Source: Syntrophales bacterium
Lineage (GTDB): Bacteria > Desulfobacterota > Syntrophia > Syntrophales > UBA2210
Assembly: GCA_963666365.2 (NCBI GenBank)
Contig: CAXXNF010000002.1
Span: 2,406,667 to 2,470,666 of the forward strand
DNA length: 64,000 nucleotides
Direction of reading: 5' to 3'
Of the stretch, positions 24,001 to 33,000 are shown piece after piece (within the stretch, counting starts at the first letter, position 1; each line of letters opens with the position of its first letter). The position numbers were made by a program.

Positions 24001-27000
24001 GCAATCCCTCATTTACTCGATCGAACAGACGGAACTGCCCATGATGCTGGTGGTACTGCGGAAGGGAACGGCGGCGGCCCATTACGTGCTGGGAGGTCCC
24101 ACGGCCAATAACAACAATGCCTTCACTCTGGGAACGCCGGCGACGGAAATTTACGTCATGCATGGTGAAACGGCGGCGGCGGCCAGTTACTCGCGGAGAC
24201 TCGTCAAGGAGAAGGACGCGGGCCGCCCTCTGGGACCGATCATCGAAAAGATGAACGAAATGGTCGCCCATTACCGCGATACCTCTGGTCCGCTTTTCTG
24301 CGCCAAAGAGGGATTTGTTGACGAGATCATACGCTTTGAAGCGATGAGAAAGTACATGGTGGCCTTTGCGAACGGCGTATACCAGAACCCGCGATCGATA
24401 TGCCCCCGCCATCACATGCTGCTGCCGCGACTGATACGTTCGCAGATCGTGAAAGGGCTTAATCGCCCTGCAGCGGAATAACAGAAAAAACAGAGGCAAG
24501 AGACGGAAATCACCCTCTCACCTCGAGGGGAGAGGGTGGGGAAGAGGGGTGAGAAATTCCCCTCCCCTTCATCCCCTCCCACCGGGGGAGGGGAACAAGA
24601 CTTTGTAGGGGATCATCACATTTGGAAAGCCATTATTCCAGAATCATCAGCACCTGGTCCGCTTCCACGGAGTCTTTTACCTTTACTTTAATTTCCTTCA
24701 CCGTTCCATCGGCGGGCGCATAAATGGGGTTTTCCATTTTCATGGCTTCAAGGATCAAAAGCTCATCGTCTTCCTTCACCGCATCGCCCACATTTACCAT
24801 AATTTCCAATATGTTCCCCGGCATGGGGGCACAGACATCTACGCTCATCTCACAACCTCCTGATTTTTTAAATGCATTATTTCTTCTTATCGGACAGACC
24901 GACCTTCAATTCCCCAAAAACTCACAGGCACATTTGAGCGCTTGCCGCTTCACTTCACGTGTGGCGCATACTACCTCGCCACTGTGCTTCCGTCAAGAAG
25001 ATAGTGAATGATCTTTTTTCAGGTTTATTGCAGCCTGTCAACACTGCTGTTATGCGTCCAATACCATTGGAAGCCCTCTTCGAGGGCGCCTTTTTTTATC
25101 TGCCCCCTTTCGATAAAGCTTCCTATCGTTTTCGTGACCAGATTCGGATCGCAGCCGGTCCTCTCGGCAATTTTCCTGGACAGGACATCGGCGGGATCAT
25201 CGGCCGCCTTCCCTGTCTCATCGGAGATAATGCGCCCGCATTCTTCGATCAGGTCTTCCGATAATATACGAAACACGATCTCGGTTCGAAGCTGACCTTC
25301 CGTGCTCATATTTTCCAGCGGTGTATTGGTTCCCGCATAATAGCCCTGGACCGATTTTTCCCAGGCCTCTCTTCCGGCTTTTTCATAAAAGGCCACAAAC
25401 TCGTTGATCTCGTCTGCCGAGAGCGCCGCAGTTCTCACAATGGCGCTGTTCGCATCGTAGCGATCCCACTGGTCGGTCAAAATTTCAAGGTCGAAGCTGT
25501 CGATGTGTTCACGCACCGTGGTTCCCGGAAAGGGTGCAAGGAAGTGGAATCCATATTCTATATCGAGGCTTTCGGCAAAGTCTCTCGTTTCCTGCAGTGT
25601 CTGAGCCGTTTCACCCGGAAGCCCTACCATAAAGGATGCGTGGGCAAGCACGCCAACCTTCTTGCATAGTGCAACGGCCTTTCGCGCCTGATCGAGGGTA
25701 ATGCCCTTGCGGATCCGTTTCAGCATATCGGGGTTTCCCGATTCGATACCGAAACTGACGGCATCGCAGCCGGCATCGCGCATCAGTTCCAGCGTTTCTG
25801 CATCCACCGTGTTGACCCGCGAAAATGCGCTCCAGGTAAAGGAAAGTCCCCGCCGTCGTATCTCCCGGCATACGGCGCGCACCTTCTCCTTGTTGGCGGT
25901 GAAGAGATCATCGGCAATATTTATTCGTGAAAAACCGCAGGACAGAAGATGGGCGATCTCGTCGACCACGAGCGAGGGGGCGCGGTGACGCACCTTCTTT
26001 CCCACCATACGGCGCCCCAGGCAGAAGATACAGGAATTGGGGCAGCCGCGGCTTGTGATGATGCTGACGGGAAATCCCAGTGCCTGATAGCGCGAAAGCG
26101 GCAGCAGGTGACGCGCCGGAAGCGGCAGGCTGTCGAGATCTTCTATCAGTCCCCTCGATTCGGTCATGACGACGCGATCGCCGTCCCGGTAGGCGATACC
26201 CTTGACGGAGGACCAGGACCCATTCGATTCAATCGCATGAACAATATCCCCTATTGTCTCCTCGCCTTCGCCTATGACGATCATGTCGATCCCGGGATGC
26301 CGGTTGAGGGTGCGTACGGCATCGAAGGACACATGGGGACCTCCCATGACGGTAATGACCGACGGCGCCAGTTTCTTCGCGGTTTCAAGAATCGAGGCGG
26401 CAATGGGAAAATTCATCGTCACCGATGTCGCGCCCACAATGCGGGGCGACAGACGCTCCAGTTCCTGTTTCAGCTTCTCTTCGGTGTAACGTGAGACGAT
26501 ATAATCGATGATGCTCACCCTGGCGCCGGCCGATTCGAAGGCCGCCGCCACATAGGTGACACCGAGGGGGGGCGACGGCGCCTCTTCCAGGGGGTAGGGG
26601 GGAGCAATAACGGCGACATTCACGGCATCACCCCTCAGTCGCCCTTTCGAGGGAACAAAAGAGCTCGAAGCCAGCCGGTCATACTGTTGCCCTTTAAATT
26701 GCGTCGATCGAGACGGTCAATCTCCGCCTCACGCTCCGCCGGATCTGAAAACCAGTGAGCCCGGGTAATCATTTCACGGTTCGGATCGAGGCGTCTCACC
26801 ACCTGGGCAGGATTTCCCGCCGCAACGGCATTTGCGGGCACATCCTTCACGACCACGGAACCGGCGCCTATGATACTGTTGTCGCCGATCGTCACCCCCT
26901 TACATACAATGGCACTGTCGCCGACCCACACATTATTCCCGATCACCACCGGCGCCGACTGTGTGAAGGCCGCCACACGATCGTAGGCGGAATGCCAGTC

Positions 27001-30000: not shown

Positions 30001-33000
30001 GGTGGATGGTCGCCATCGTTGGATATCCGATATGCGGAAGACCGAGAAGCCCATAGGAAAGACACTGATTATCATGAATGATGTCATAGTCGGGGCGCTT
30101 GATTCTGAAATAATGAAACACGCGCCAACCGAAGGTAAAGGGCTCGGGAAATCCGCCAAGGGACATGCTGAGAAGCTCAAGCTGATTCAGAGGCGATGCA
30201 AGCGCTTCTATACGGTCCGGCTTAAACAGGTGATCGGGATTGTAGAGATCGAGTCCGGGAAGTTTGTGAAGGGTTACGTGGTCGACCGGCTCGGGATAGG
30301 GGGGGCCCGATATCACGTCCACCCGGTGCCCAAGGTCCCTGAGCGCGGTACTGAGGTATTTGATATAGACGCCCTGACCTCCGCAGGTAGGATTCCCCCG
30401 ATAGGTCAGGAGACATATCCTGAGAGAATCGTCATTGCCGTTCCCGCCCCTTGATTCCACAGGTCTTCTCCGCCCCATAGCCGCCGGTGTGCTCCTCTTA
30501 TTGATCTGTAAGAGAGTTCCCTTTAGCAGAATTATGACCGAAGGTCAATAATTATGAAGCGACTGCCTGAGAGGTGTAAAGGATTGAAAAATGCTCGAAT
30601 ATTGTGGATCAGCCGCCCTTGCCGCGGGGCAGACGCTGATCGTTGCCCTCAAATATAAATTTTGTTTTCCCGTCTTCAAGGAATGAGAGCCTCCCCCTTG
30701 AAAGGGAGACTCTCTTCGCCTCTACAGGGTACGGCTCGCCCCGTTCAAGGTGTTCAAAAGAAGCATGGCGATCGTCATAGGCCCCACGCCACCGGGAACG
30801 GGTGTAATATGCGATGCCTTGGGCGCCACTTCGGAAAAAGCGACATCGCCTAAAAGTTTTCCTGTCTCCGATCTGTTTATGCCCACGTCAATGACCACGG
30901 CGCCCTCCTTGACCATGTCGCCGTGGATCATTTCAGGGCTTCCCGCCGCCGCCACCAGGATATCAGCCCGTCGCGTCACCTCGGCAAGCGCCCTTGTCCT
31001 CGTGTGACAGAGAGTAACCGTTGCGTGACGCGCGAGAAGCATCAGGGCAAGGGGTTTGCCCACGATATTGCTTCTTCCCACAATAACCGCCTCTTTCCCC
31101 TCGATGCCTATACGGTATCGATCCAGCAATTCAATGATGCCCAGCGGCGTACAGGACATATGGTGGGATGTGCCCGAAAAAAGCTTCCCCACGTTGTAAG
31201 GATGAAACCCGTCCACATCCTTTCGGGGGTTAATGGCCTCGACAAGAAACTCCGCATTCAGATGTTTCGGAAGCGGCAGTTGCACCAGAATTCCATGAAT
31301 TGACTCATCTTGGTTCAAATTCTCTATCAGGGCATGCACCTCTCCTTCCCCTGTTTCAGCGGGAAGCCTGAACTCACGTGAAAGAAAACCCGCCTCCAGA
31401 CAGGCGTTCTTTTTGCCCCGCACATAGATTTGCGATGCCGGATCGTCACCGACAAGAATCACGGCCAGTCCCGGCGTGATACCCCTCTCGTTTTTGAGAA
31501 GAAGGACCCTGTCCTTTATCTCGCTTCTTACCTTCTGAGCTACATCCTTGCCATCGATAATCACTGCCATGTACGTCACACTGCCCCTGTAAAATGATGC
31601 CTAGTCTTCAATGCCCATATAACCCTTTTTCAGTTTCTCGTCGGCCTTCTCCCCAAAGGTGTACCGGAAGTACATCTGTGCAAATTCACTCCCGGGGATA
31701 GTGCCCTTCACCTCCCCCTGCCATTCGAGCGTAAGGCCCTTTCCCGGCACATAGGTGGTCACCGACGTCTTTCCCGGTGCCATGCCCTTGTCGAACCAGG
31801 ATACATACTTCTCGATATCGGCCTTGTGCTTTTCAATCAGCTCGGGGGGATTGTTTGCCTCCATCATCTCCAGAAAGCCTTCCTGAAGTTTTTTCTGGGT
31901 TGCCTTGTCGGTAAGATAGTGCAAATAAAACTGTTTGACCTGTTCCGATTCAATGACTTCTTTCGGATCATGAGTCGGATTCTCAAGATACAGCCCTCCG
32001 GCGTACACCTTGACCCACAGTTTCTTCAGGAAAGAAACACCGTTGAGTGTGAGCGTCTTCCCGGCAACAACTTTTTCTCCGGGAAACTTCACGCCCAGAA
32101 TTTCTTTATCTTCCCCCCATACCGCGCCCGTACCCAGAAGCAGAAACAATGCCACCACTACAATTGCCGTCCATTTCTTCATACTCCACCCCTCCTTCGT
32201 TGTCTGTTTGCGTTTCAATCTCACTTTGTGTTATGTGGAGATATTTCGTAGCTGGGAGAGACGTTTTCATGAAAGAAGAAAATCTCGCATCCGCGTTGAC
32301 CAATGTCAGCGCCACATTTCCACATAACACGGCGATCATATACAAAGACCGATCGATACCATATCAGGAACTGAATCGGCAAGTCAACTCTTTCGCATGC
32401 ATTTTGAGAGATCTGGGCATCAAAAAGGGGGACAAGATCGCCATCATGCTTCCCAATATTCCGGAATTCGTCATCGCCTATTTTGCGGCGATGAAACTGG
32501 GTGCCGTGGCGGTTACCCTCAATACGGCATCGACCTCCTACGAACTCGGCTATCTTCTGGACAACAGCGATGCCGGAGCATTTATAACCATCCCCTCGTC
32601 TGCGAAGCGCCTTACCGACATTCGCCATGATCTTCCCTTGTGCAGGCATCTGATTGTCACCGAAGGAGACGAGGGGGATCTTTCCATGGAAAAGGCCGTT
32701 ACGGACGGACCCTTCGATTTTCAGTCACCGGAAATCAGCGGGGATGATCCGGCGGTGATCGTCTACACGGCCGGGCTGACGGGGCAACCTCTCGGCGCCG
32801 TTCTTACTCACAGAAACCTCTATACCCAATCGTTTCTGGTAAAAGAAGTGTGCGCCGGCACCGATCAGGACAGAGGGCTGTGCCTCATTCCCCTTTTTCA
32901 CACCTTCGGCGCCACAGTCAACATGCTCTGCGCCCTGAATATGGGCGCCGCAATGGTGATGATCGACAAGTTCAACCTGGAATCAGTGTTCAAAGCCATA

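What a model noticed while it worked through the whole genome (the two positions that open the first line are those of the whole stretch)
25025..30478. Mycobacterial-type methylmannose polysaccharide (MMP) gene cluster in a Gram-negative fatty-acid syntroph, extended by a [...]
g03401-g03400-g03399 are manT, putative meT3 and mmpH of the mycobacterial MMP pathway, followed by a hexapeptide acetyltransferase (g03398) and a B12 radical SAM methylase (g03397); meT1 (g00833, C1:1036049-1036720) lies elsewhere here but closes the cluster in most relatives. The cluster is common in Syntrophales, pointing to an acyl-CoA-binding methylmannose polymer outside Actinobacteria.
Evidence so far: Swiss-Prot: 45% to ManT (E 1e-105), 46% to MmpH (E 2e-102), 50% to MeT1 of M. 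hassiacum. Only PDB hits: 7qsj MmpH E 1.5e-96, 6g7d E 6.5e-59; MmpH catalytic D47/D50/E262 motifs kept (TDPWD, AESAE; residues from PMC9883506 passages, call 29). MmpH in 107 of 201 Syntrophales, 16 of 151 Desulfobacterota. Of 80 loci: manT 73, meT3 74, acetyltransferase 78, rSAM 63, meT1 47, same order. Paper searches 16, 24, 25, 28 show only actinobacterial reports.
(Added by a program. Inside this text positions count along the whole contig: contig position 2,406,667 is position 1 of the stretch shown here. "Call 12" and the like, gene names such as g00115 and contig names such as C1 are that model's own, and its searches are not shown. The text may have been shortened before it was handed on; [...] marks where a part breaks off. 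The agent that wrote the report below was given it as the finding of a first reader that could run no searches.)

Follow-up and report, generated by a model that had tools for sequence, protein, structure and literature searches.

The report
Mycobacterial sugar-polymer genes in Gram-negative bacteria
This anaerobic bacterium carries intact copies of the genes that mycobacteria use to build a fat-binding methylated sugar polymer, plus two extra tailoring genes, and the same gene set turns out to be almost universal in some very abundant ocean bacteria, although nobody has yet shown that any of them makes the polymer.

Summary
Window 25025-30478 (minus strand) is a five-gene operon: manT, putative meT3, mmpH, a hexapeptide acyltransferase and a B12-domain radical SAM enzyme; meT1 lies on the other contig. 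ManT, MmpH and MeT1 match the solved mycobacterial enzymes (E 1e-103, 1e-96, 1e-59) with catalytic residues kept. mmpH is in 75 of 151 genomes of the order; meT1 occurs in 40 of 42 mmpH-positive against 1 of 38 negative genomes. New here: mmpH is in 79 of 81 SAR86-order genomes, 60 of 61 Halieaceae-family genomes and 11 of 151 Alphaproteobacteria, with the mycobacterial gene order wherever checked. The acyltransferase follows the pathway even when unlinked; the radical SAM gene is confined to anaerobes, and 'methylase' is unproven. Carriers are rich in acyl-CoA dehydrogenases across the phylum (median 32 against 5), only weakly so within the order, and lack FAS-I (4 of 4). Best reading: a cytoplasmic, probably O-acetylated methylmannose polymer that buffers acyl-CoA during lipid breakdown. 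No polymer is shown; proteobacterial MmpH homologues were mentioned once, in a peer-review file.

The parts
29198..30478 (-). manT orthologue: GT4 glycosyltransferase, 426 aa, predicted alpha-(1,4)-mannosyltransferase
   Evidence: PDB 7qsg E 1.5e-103. G15, H142, K240, E313, G314, F315, E321 of M. hassiacum ManT kept; D293 (modelled guanine contact) is Tyr here (residues from PMC9883506; mapped by hand; columns tabulated).
28498..29211 (-). putative meT3: class I SAM methyltransferase, 237 aa, predicted 3-O-methyltransferase (unproven in mycobacteria too)
   Evidence: Pfam Methyltransf_11 E 1.6e-20; 39-51% to the gene in the same position of actinobacterial and proteobacterial clusters; start overlaps the manT stop by 14 nt.
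27363..28496 (-). mmpH orthologue: (alpha/alpha)6 hydrolase, 377 aa, predicted methylmannan endo-alpha-(1,4)-mannosidase
   Evidence: Only PDB hit 7qsj, E 1.5e-96. 10 of the 11 site residues named in PMC9883506 identical, F102 is Met (hand mapping). Single copy in the genome. No Pfam family.
26635..27366 (-). hexapeptide-repeat acyltransferase, 243 aa; candidate O-acetyltransferase of the polymer
   Evidence: Best PDB hits maltose and galactoside O-acetyltransferases, E about 1e-21, with the His of their active-site loop aligned (role of the His recalled). Orthologue in 27 of 251 phylum genomes, all mmpH carriers; unlinked orthologue in 15 of 20 mmpH-positive Pseudomonadota tested and 0 of 243 mmpH-negative Gammaproteobacteria.
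25025..26623 (-). B12-binding-domain radical SAM protein, 532 aa; candidate anaerobic tailoring enzyme, reaction unknown
   Evidence: Pfam B12-binding and Radical_SAM, CxxxCxxC invariant. No NCBIfam family over cut-off. Close clade (E<=1e-185) in 24 of 251 phylum genomes, all mmpH carriers; looser relatives in 19 mmpH-negative genomes. Model pLDDT 89.5; AprD4, TsrM, MgmA, CysS, TokK, OxsB all TM 0.56-0.68.

Best explanation
The operon, with meT1 on the other contig, builds a small soluble cytoplasmic polymer of the MMP kind (alpha-1,4-linked 3-O-methylmannose) by the recycling route shown in mycobacteria: MmpH cuts mature chains inside, MeT1 caps the new reducing ends, ManT extends the pieces from GDP-mannose, MeT3 methylates each added unit (steps shown for mycobacterial MmpH, ManT and MeT1; inferred here from orthology; MeT3 inferred everywhere). 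The acyltransferase then O-acetylates some units, as in the acetylated MMP reported from Streptomyces griseus (inferred), and in anaerobes the radical SAM enzyme makes a further change to a sugar unit, C-methylation or deoxygenation (weakly inferred). The likeliest role is to bind long acyl-CoA chains during lipid breakdown, not to steer FAS-I as proposed for mycobacteria, since FAS-I was not found in these carriers (inferred; about 0.4 on its own).
For: Orthology with clear score gaps and kept catalytic residues. Across fetched loci MmpH E262 is Glu in 107 of 107 Gram-negative rows and D47 is Asp in 105 of 108; ManT K240, E313 and E321 are invariant in 91 of 91 Gram-negative rows (a few genomes appear twice). 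The whole set travels together even when unlinked: meT1 in 40 of 42 mmpH-positive against 1 of 38 negative genomes; manT in 5 of 5 carriers tested, 3 of them with manT away from mmpH. The mycobacterial layout manT-meT3-mmpH facing meT1 recurs in 11 of 11 SAR86 genomes, 4 of 4 Halieaceae and 10 of 11 alphaproteobacterial loci checked. No flippase, ligase or polyprenyl-priming gene in the operon. A ManC-type guanylyltransferase and a mannose-6-phosphate isomerase domain are in the genome. Acyl-CoA dehydrogenase matches outside the order: median 32 in 21 carriers, 5 in 44 non-carriers; family means per Mb 6.5 (11 families) against 1.6 (36 families); no carrier under 8. SAR86, Halieaceae and alphaproteobacterial carriers hold 10-39 (5 genomes); SAR86 is described as specialised for lipids and carbohydrates (PMC3358033 abstract). 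FAS-I domain found in 0 of 4 Gram-negative carriers and in the Mycobacterium control.
Against: No polymer, enzyme assay or expression data for any Gram-negative carrier. ManT D293 is Asp in 55 of 60 actinobacterial rows but in 9 of 54 Desulfobacterota rows and Tyr here, so the donor is not guaranteed. Within the order the link to acyl-CoA dehydrogenases is weak: median 19 (21 carriers) against 10.5 (20 non-carriers), per Mb 4.7 against 3.9, family level not different, and in family f7 the non-carriers have more. 7 of 44 and 5 of 20 non-carriers have 18 or more, so heavy beta-oxidation does not need the cluster. Teredinibacter turnerae, recalled as a cellulose degrader, has MmpH. In mycobacteria the in vivo role in fatty acid metabolism is doubted and the mmpH mutant shows only an 18% longer generation time at 15 C. 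The acyltransferase orthologue was not found in 5 of 5 actinobacterial carriers, 2 of them Streptomyces, so it is not the known-AMMP enzyme. In many Gammaproteobacteria the cluster lies inside the LPS-core locus.
Confidence: 0.6

Rival explanations
1. The polymer is made, but its job is unrelated to acyl-CoA: cold or other stress adaptation, or a small carbon or methyl store. The link to lipid degraders would be shared ancestry.
For: Only phenotype of the M. smegmatis mutant is slower growth at 15 C (PMC9883506); fatty acid content unchanged in polymer mutants (PMC2674218 passages). MmpH tree is clustered by lineage, so carriers are few independent events. Weak signal inside the order. T. turnerae carries it.
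Against: Carriers in three separate phyla are all rich in acyl-CoA dehydrogenases; none of 42 Desulfobacterota carriers has under 8 matches whereas 37 of 64 non-carriers do. Kept in 0.7-1.8 Mb SAR86 genomes.
Confidence: 0.3
2. In Gram-negative carriers the enzymes build a methylmannose chain on LPS core or another membrane lipid instead of a free cytoplasmic polymer.
For: Cluster within 7 kb of kdtA, lpxL or waa genes in 4 of 7 gammaproteobacterial loci of the scan and 4 of 4 further SAR86 loci; in G410 manT directly follows a Kdo/WaaP kinase gene. This genome's meT1 is 1.8 kb from kdtA. 3-O-methylmannose O-antigens exist (PMC9883506 introduction).
Against: No LPS gene near the cluster in this window, 10 of 10 long Desulfobacterota loci, 9 of 9 alphaproteobacterial loci or 2 further Halieaceae loci. 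MeT1 methylates a free anomeric OH, which a lipid-linked chain lacks, yet it is kept nearly everywhere. The same genes serve a soluble polymer in mycobacteria and occur in a Chloroflexota-like group with no LPS gene nearby.
Confidence: 0.12
3. The same chemistry is applied to a different sugar or linkage (another GDP- or NDP-sugar, or a deoxy sugar made with the radical SAM enzyme), giving a relative of MMP and not MMP itself.
For: ManT D293 not conserved in Desulfobacterota. A full ManC passed the family cut-off in only 1 of 5 SAR86 genomes; 2 had only the isomerase domain and 1 nothing. Top sequence and fold hit of the radical SAM protein is the sugar dehydratase AprD4. A Chloroflexota-like variant has two manT copies and no meT3 in 55 of 55 loci.
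Against: The mannosyl-binding loop (E313, G314, F315) is invariant and the MmpH pocket is kept in all groups; D293 varies among Alpha- and Gammaproteobacteria without a fixed replacement, as for a non-essential contact. This genome has ManC-type and isomerase genes.
Confidence: 0.15
4. The radical SAM gene is a co-transcribed neighbour with an unrelated substrate (lipid or cofactor).
For: Relatives at 38-48% in 17 mmpH-negative genomes of three families, with no shared functional neighbourhood; a 57% paralogue in this genome among CoA-metabolism genes; 5 of 30 phylum carriers lack it; not found in 4 Pseudomonadota carriers.
Against: Close clade only in carriers (24 of 24); a second, 43-49% copy sits next to meT1 in G382 and G244 and near the cluster in G190, which points to repeated recruitment.
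Confidence: 0.35

Closest known systems
Mycobacterial MMP cluster (manT, pmeT3, mmpH, meT1; PMC9883506; PDB 7qsg, 7qsj, 6g7d)
   Same: All four genes, 43-48% identity to a Mycobacterium locus, catalytic residues, order manT-meT3-mmpH.
   Different: Gram-negative anaerobe without FAS-I; two extra operon genes; meT1 unlinked in this genome; ManT D293 is Tyr; MmpH sequences form a separate Desulfobacterota group in the tree.
Acetylated MMP (AMMP) of Streptomyces griseus (known to me only through passages in PMC9883506 and PMC4555173)
   Same: Precedent for an acetylated methylmannose polymer; Streptomyces loci carry the same four genes.
   Different: The window's acyltransferase has no orthologue in the 2 Streptomyces genomes tested (best E 1e-17); the AMMP acetylase is unknown.
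MGLP cluster acetyltransferase Rv3034c type (putative; PMC2674218 passage)
   Same: Hexapeptide acyltransferase in a polymethylated-polysaccharide cluster. The best hit of the window's acyltransferase in M. ahvazicum is 31% over 192 aa in a locus whose gene order I recall as that of Rv3034c-Rv3038c.
   Different: Score no higher than general hexapeptide background; different polymer (methylglucose); locus identity is recalled, not tested.
Class B radical SAM enzymes: AprD4 (sugar dehydratase), TsrM, TokK, CysS, MgmA (methylases), OxsB
   Same: B12-binding-like domain plus radical SAM barrel, TM 0.56-0.68.
   Different: 16-21% identity, below every NCBIfam cut-off, own C-terminal domain; cobalamin binding and reaction untested.

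Membership tests
Mycobacterial MMP pathway | mmpH orthologue with catalytic D47/D50/E262 and pocket residues | tested here: met
   7qsj E 1.5e-96; 10 of 11 named residues identical.
Mycobacterial MMP pathway | manT orthologue with G15, H142, K240, E313, E321 | tested here: met
   7qsg E 1.5e-103; all five kept.
Mycobacterial MMP pathway | GDP-mannose as donor (modelled contact L291/D293; supply genes) | tested here: inconclusive
   D293 is Tyr; mannosyl loop kept; ManC-type gene present below the cut-off for the fused form.
Mycobacterial MMP pathway | meT1 orthologue | tested here: met
   6g7d E 6.5e-59; unlinked here; 40 of 42 carriers against 1 of 38 non-carriers. The MeT1 paper was not held, so its catalytic residues were not checked against the text.
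Mycobacterial MMP pathway | pmeT3 between manT and mmpH | tested here: met
   Same position, shared motifs across groups.
Mycobacterial MMP pathway | Four genes in one cluster with meT1 facing mmpH | tested here: not met
   meT1 is on the other contig in this genome; met in many relatives and in SAR86, Halieaceae and Alphaproteobacteria.
Mycobacterial MMP pathway | Soluble alpha-1,4 3-O-methylmannose 11-14-mer with methyl aglycone is produced | not testable with these tools
   Needs extraction, MS and NMR.
Mycobacterial MMP pathway | Polymer binds acyl-CoA and acts on FAS-I | tested here: inconclusive
   FAS-I not found in 4 of 4 Gram-negative carriers; acyl-CoA dehydrogenase enrichment strong across the phylum, weak in the order; binding untestable here.
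Cobalamin-dependent radical SAM methylases (class B) | B12-binding domain plus CxxxCxxC radical SAM domain | tested here: met
Cobalamin-dependent radical SAM methylases (class B) | Binds cobalamin and transfers a methyl group | tested here: inconclusive
   Fold search does not separate AprD4 from the methylases.
Maltose/galactoside O-acetyltransferase-like hexapeptide enzymes | Left-handed beta-helix repeats with the active-site His loop | tested here: met
   D121, D123, W124, H125 invariant in 8 orthologues. Below all NCBIfam cut-offs, so a separate subfamily.
CAZy GH178 | Family recalled as the one holding MmpH | not testable with these tools
   A passage only places GH178 in clan GH-L (PMC11442529); CAZy's own member list could not be seen.

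The most novel reading that the evidence does not exclude
MMP is not a mycobacterial oddity but an old, widespread carbohydrate chaperone for acyl-CoA in lipid-eating bacteria: a core trait of SAR86 and Halieaceae in the surface ocean and of anaerobic fatty-acid oxidisers, O-acetylated in Gram-negatives by a dedicated enzyme family and, in anaerobes, further modified by a radical SAM enzyme acting on a polysaccharide. SAR86 would then be a candidate source of methylated sugars in marine dissolved organic matter (these sugars are mentioned in PMC4817625 passages; the link is my speculation).
Probability: 0.3. Interest if true: 0.9.

Novelty: new variant of a known kind. Interest (0 to 1): 0.74.

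Why it matters
The function of polymethylated polysaccharides has been open for decades: they bind acyl-CoA in vitro, but mutants say little. Finding the whole pathway in organisms without FAS-I, kept in 79 of 81 genomes of the streamlined SAR86 order and in 60 of 61 of a family with cultured members, moves the question from fatty acid synthesis to lipid catabolism and gives new, harmless hosts in which to test it. It assigns a pathway to four or five genes now labelled 'prenyltransferase' or 'hypothetical' in one of the most abundant marine clades and in anaerobic digester syntrophs, and it names two candidate tailoring enzymes, one possibly a radical SAM enzyme acting on a glycan.

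Tried and rejected
Recent transfer from mycobacteria: rejected; GC of the operon equals its surroundings and in a quick 95-row MmpH tree 21 of 23 Desulfobacterota rows group apart from all 35 actinobacterial rows (support 90, unstarred, unrooted). Assembly artefact: rejected. Mobile carriage: no relative in viral contigs (one search was a format test and its 36 pattern hits were not examined) and only one record in the plasmid set, an 11.9 Mb Nonomuraea replicon. 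Expression: no RNA holder listed. Promoter scan: a 10-of-12 site at 30580-30551, but 9 sites against 5.2 +- 1.9 in shuffles, not used. Structure model of the acyltransferase was poor (pLDDT 66) and its fold search gave nothing at E<=0.001. Neighbourhoods of the looser radical SAM relatives gave no functional clue. ESM Atlas added only generic names. Genes between mmpH and meT1 in Streptomyces showed no acyltransferase hit. The first all-against-all clustering timed out and was rerun smaller. One search compared a wrong frame; one search is the valid one. No complex prediction was sent, as no binding claim is made. The PNAS 2019 MeT1 paper and the JBC 2009 review were not held; they, supplement file 4 of PMC9883506 (unreadable) and the CAZy member lists may mention wider distribution.

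Full report
OBSERVATION. The stretch holds five same-strand ORFs whose ends overlap or lie 1-11 bases apart: 30478-29198, 29211-28498, 28496-27363, 27366-26635 and 26623-25025. GC is like the surroundings. Contigs of two public runs match the stretch without differences where they cover it. Each gene is single-copy except the last, which has a 57% paralogue on contig C1. The flanks are fatty-acid and CoA metabolism genes and folD.

IDENTITY OF THE CORE. MmpH has one PDB hit, 7qsj, E 1.5e-96. The gene at C1:1036049 has one hit, MeT1 6g7d, E 6.5e-59. I read parts 1-6 of 11 of PMC9883506 (introduction, results, discussion, start of methods) and mapped its named residues by hand on these alignments. 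MmpH keeps 10 of 11 (F102 is Met). ManT keeps G15, H142, K240, E313, G314, F315 and E321, while D293, modelled as a guanine contact, is Tyr. Across fetched loci (a few genomes counted twice) MmpH E262 is Glu in 107 of 107 Gram-negative rows and D47 Asp in 105 of 108; ManT K240, E313 and E321 are invariant in 91 of 91; D293 is Asp in 55 of 60 actinobacterial but 9 of 54 Desulfobacterota rows. The genome has a ManC-type guanylyltransferase (347 bits, under the 373 cut-off of the fused form) and a separate isomerase domain.

OWN LINEAGE. The closest named proteins are from Syntrophales and Deltaproteobacteria MAGs. mmpH is in 75 of 151 genomes of the order, all-or-none by family in most cases, and in 30 of 251 of the phylum, two as fragments; 32 further weak matches at E above 1e-8 were set aside as other barrels. 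In the 30 best loci the acyltransferase follows mmpH in 30, the radical SAM gene in 24. meT1 orthologues (E<1e-40) are in 40 of 42 carriers and 1 of 38 non-carriers, the one being a 1.5 Mb fragmented genome; 18 of the non-carriers were hand-picked, mostly for high acyl-CoA dehydrogenase counts. manT was found in 5 of 5 further carriers, in 3 away from mmpH.

BEYOND THE LINEAGE. All 80 loci were true mmpH: 63 Actinomycetota, 14 Pseudomonadota (SAR86, Halioglobus, Congregibacter, Cellvibrionaceae, Spongiibacteraceae, Parvibaculum, Rhodobiaceae, Henriciella, Robiginitomaculum and others), 2 labelled Deltaproteobacteria, 1 unnamed. The 14 Pseudomonadota loci have manT 14, meT3 14, meT1 12, in the mycobacterial layout. 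Whole-genome searches, centre genome included, gave 79 of 81 in the order of the SAR86 genome, 60 of 61 in the family of the Halioglobus genome, 7 of 250 Gammaproteobacteria (one more unscored) and 11 of 151 Alphaproteobacteria. All four genes in the same layout were seen in 11 of 11 SAR86 genomes, 4 of 4 Halieaceae loci and 10 of 11 alphaproteobacterial loci checked. Named proteins add Teredinibacter turnerae and Chloroflexota or Dehalococcoidia MAGs. In 55 metagenome loci 67-100% identical to the Chloroflexota protein the layout is manT-manT-mmpH facing meT1, with no meT3, acyltransferase or radical SAM gene nearby; the taxon rests on one named member. A quick tree of 95 MmpH rows clusters by lineage (10 label changes against 52 in shuffles), with 21 of 23 Desulfobacterota rows apart from the Actinobacteria; it is unrooted and deep forks are weak. 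The pathway is old and mostly inherited, not a recent gift from mycobacteria.

THE TWO EXTRA GENES. The acyltransferase resembles maltose and galactoside O-acetyltransferases (E about 1e-21) but forms its own subfamily. Orthologues (E<1e-30) are in 27 of 251 phylum genomes, all carriers, where linkage explains the match. The independent test is elsewhere: it is present but unlinked in 15 of 20 mmpH-positive Pseudomonadota tested and in 0 of 243 mmpH-negative Gammaproteobacteria (no alphaproteobacterial negative control; kin not independent). It was not found in 5 actinobacterial carriers. An acetylated MMP is reported from S. griseus (passages), so acetylation of the polymer is the simplest reading. 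The radical SAM protein's close clade is in 24 of 251 genomes, all carriers; one carrier has a 44% form; 19 non-carriers have looser relatives; 5 carriers lack it (five candidates scored per genome). A second copy lies beside meT1 in two genomes. It was not found in 4 Pseudomonadota carriers. Sequence and fold rank the sugar dehydratase AprD4 first, but level with B12 methylases, so the reaction is open.

ROLE. Outside the order, all 21 full-length carriers have a median of 32 acyl-CoA dehydrogenase matches (8-59, four capped) against 5 (0-33) in 44 consecutive non-carriers; per Mb 7.2 against 1.65; family means 6.5 against 1.6. Inside the order the contrast is 19 against 10.5 (21 hand-picked of 75 carriers, the 20 listed of 76 non-carriers), not different at family level and reversed in one family. 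Matches are not copy numbers. Five marine or alphaproteobacterial carriers hold 10-39 (no matched control). FAS-I was found in none of 4 Gram-negative carriers but in the Mycobacterium control. MMP forms 1:1 complexes with long acyl chains in vitro (PMC4555173 passage), while its in vivo role is doubted (PMC2674218 passages) and the mmpH mutant has only a cold phenotype. I therefore favour a soluble, acetylated MMP-type polymer (0.6) and, with less confidence (0.4), an acyl-CoA buffer for lipid catabolism.

MAIN RIVAL. In 4 of 7 gammaproteobacterial scan loci and 4 of 4 further SAR86 loci the cluster sits among LPS-core genes, and this genome's meT1 is 1.8 kb from kdtA. But no LPS gene lies near it in the window, 10 long Desulfobacterota loci, 9 alphaproteobacterial loci or 2 more Halieaceae loci, and a reducing-end methylase fits a free chain. 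One old insertion into that locus explains the pattern.

PRIOR ART. Ten searches of the held library listed no paper on this cluster outside Actinobacteria; SAR86 with methylmannose gave 0 papers. I saw listings only, except for the papers named here. The peer-review file of PMC9883506 (supplement 1, part 4 of 4 read) states that MmpH has 40-51% homologues in some Proteobacteria with conserved sites and that this was out of scope. Passages only were seen of PMC4555173, PMC9890503, PMC11442529, PMC3358033, PMC4817625 and PMC2674218. The PNAS 2019 and JBC 2009 papers were not held, and subscription literature and CAZy were not searchable.

VERDICT. Real, well supported as genomics, unproven as chemistry. 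A new variant of a known pathway whose range reaches core status in SAR86 and Halieaceae, with a Gram-negative acyltransferase and an anaerobe-only radical SAM add-on. Interest 0.74.

Noticed in passing
L099-L178, L265-L275: MmpH D50 is Asn in 31 of 61 actinobacterial and 17 of 18 alphaproteobacterial rows while D47 is nearly invariant. PMC9883506 left open which is the catalytic acid; this favours D47.
   Followed up: partly
L309-L363, e.g. L309:4330-8644: Chloroflexota-like variant: two tandem manT paralogues (62% identical), mmpH and meT1, with no meT3 in 55 of 55 loci; could make an unmethylated or differently built mannan.
   Followed up: partly
L283:8780-9553, L284:8214-9011: SAR86 genomes lacking a full ManC carry a fusion of a cytidylyltransferase-like domain and a mannose-6-phosphate isomerase C-terminal domain; in G400 two genes from the acyltransferase, in G405 between metK and ahcY. 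Possible alternative sugar-nucleotide supply.
   Followed up: partly
L283, L287, L288: The unlinked SAR86 acyltransferase lies head-to-head with a MATE transporter gene in 3 of 3 genomes viewed.
   Followed up: no
G000:C1:545315-546896 (L032:7304-8896): 57% paralogue of the radical SAM gene among thiolase, CoA-transferase and acyl-CoA synthetase genes.
   Followed up: partly
L389:5719-6705: Best hit of the acyltransferase in M. ahvazicum (31% over 192 aa) lies in a locus recalled as the Rv3034c-Rv3038c block of the methylglucose polysaccharide cluster.
   Followed up: partly
P0156, P0159, P0175, P0176: MmpH domains fused behind 185-400 extra residues (519-740 aa), possibly meT3 or manT fusions.
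   Followed up: no
window 19642-24481: Sodium-translocating decarboxylase subunits with an acyl-CoA dehydrogenase and a carboxyltransferase, resembling glutaryl-CoA degradation; the beta subunit has an inserted biotinyl-like domain.
   Followed up: no
window 52001-62000: Low-GC stretch (0.39-0.44 against about 0.55), probably foreign DNA.
   Followed up: no
G388:C1:889489-891426: One full meT1 and three partial copies within 2 kb.
   Followed up: no
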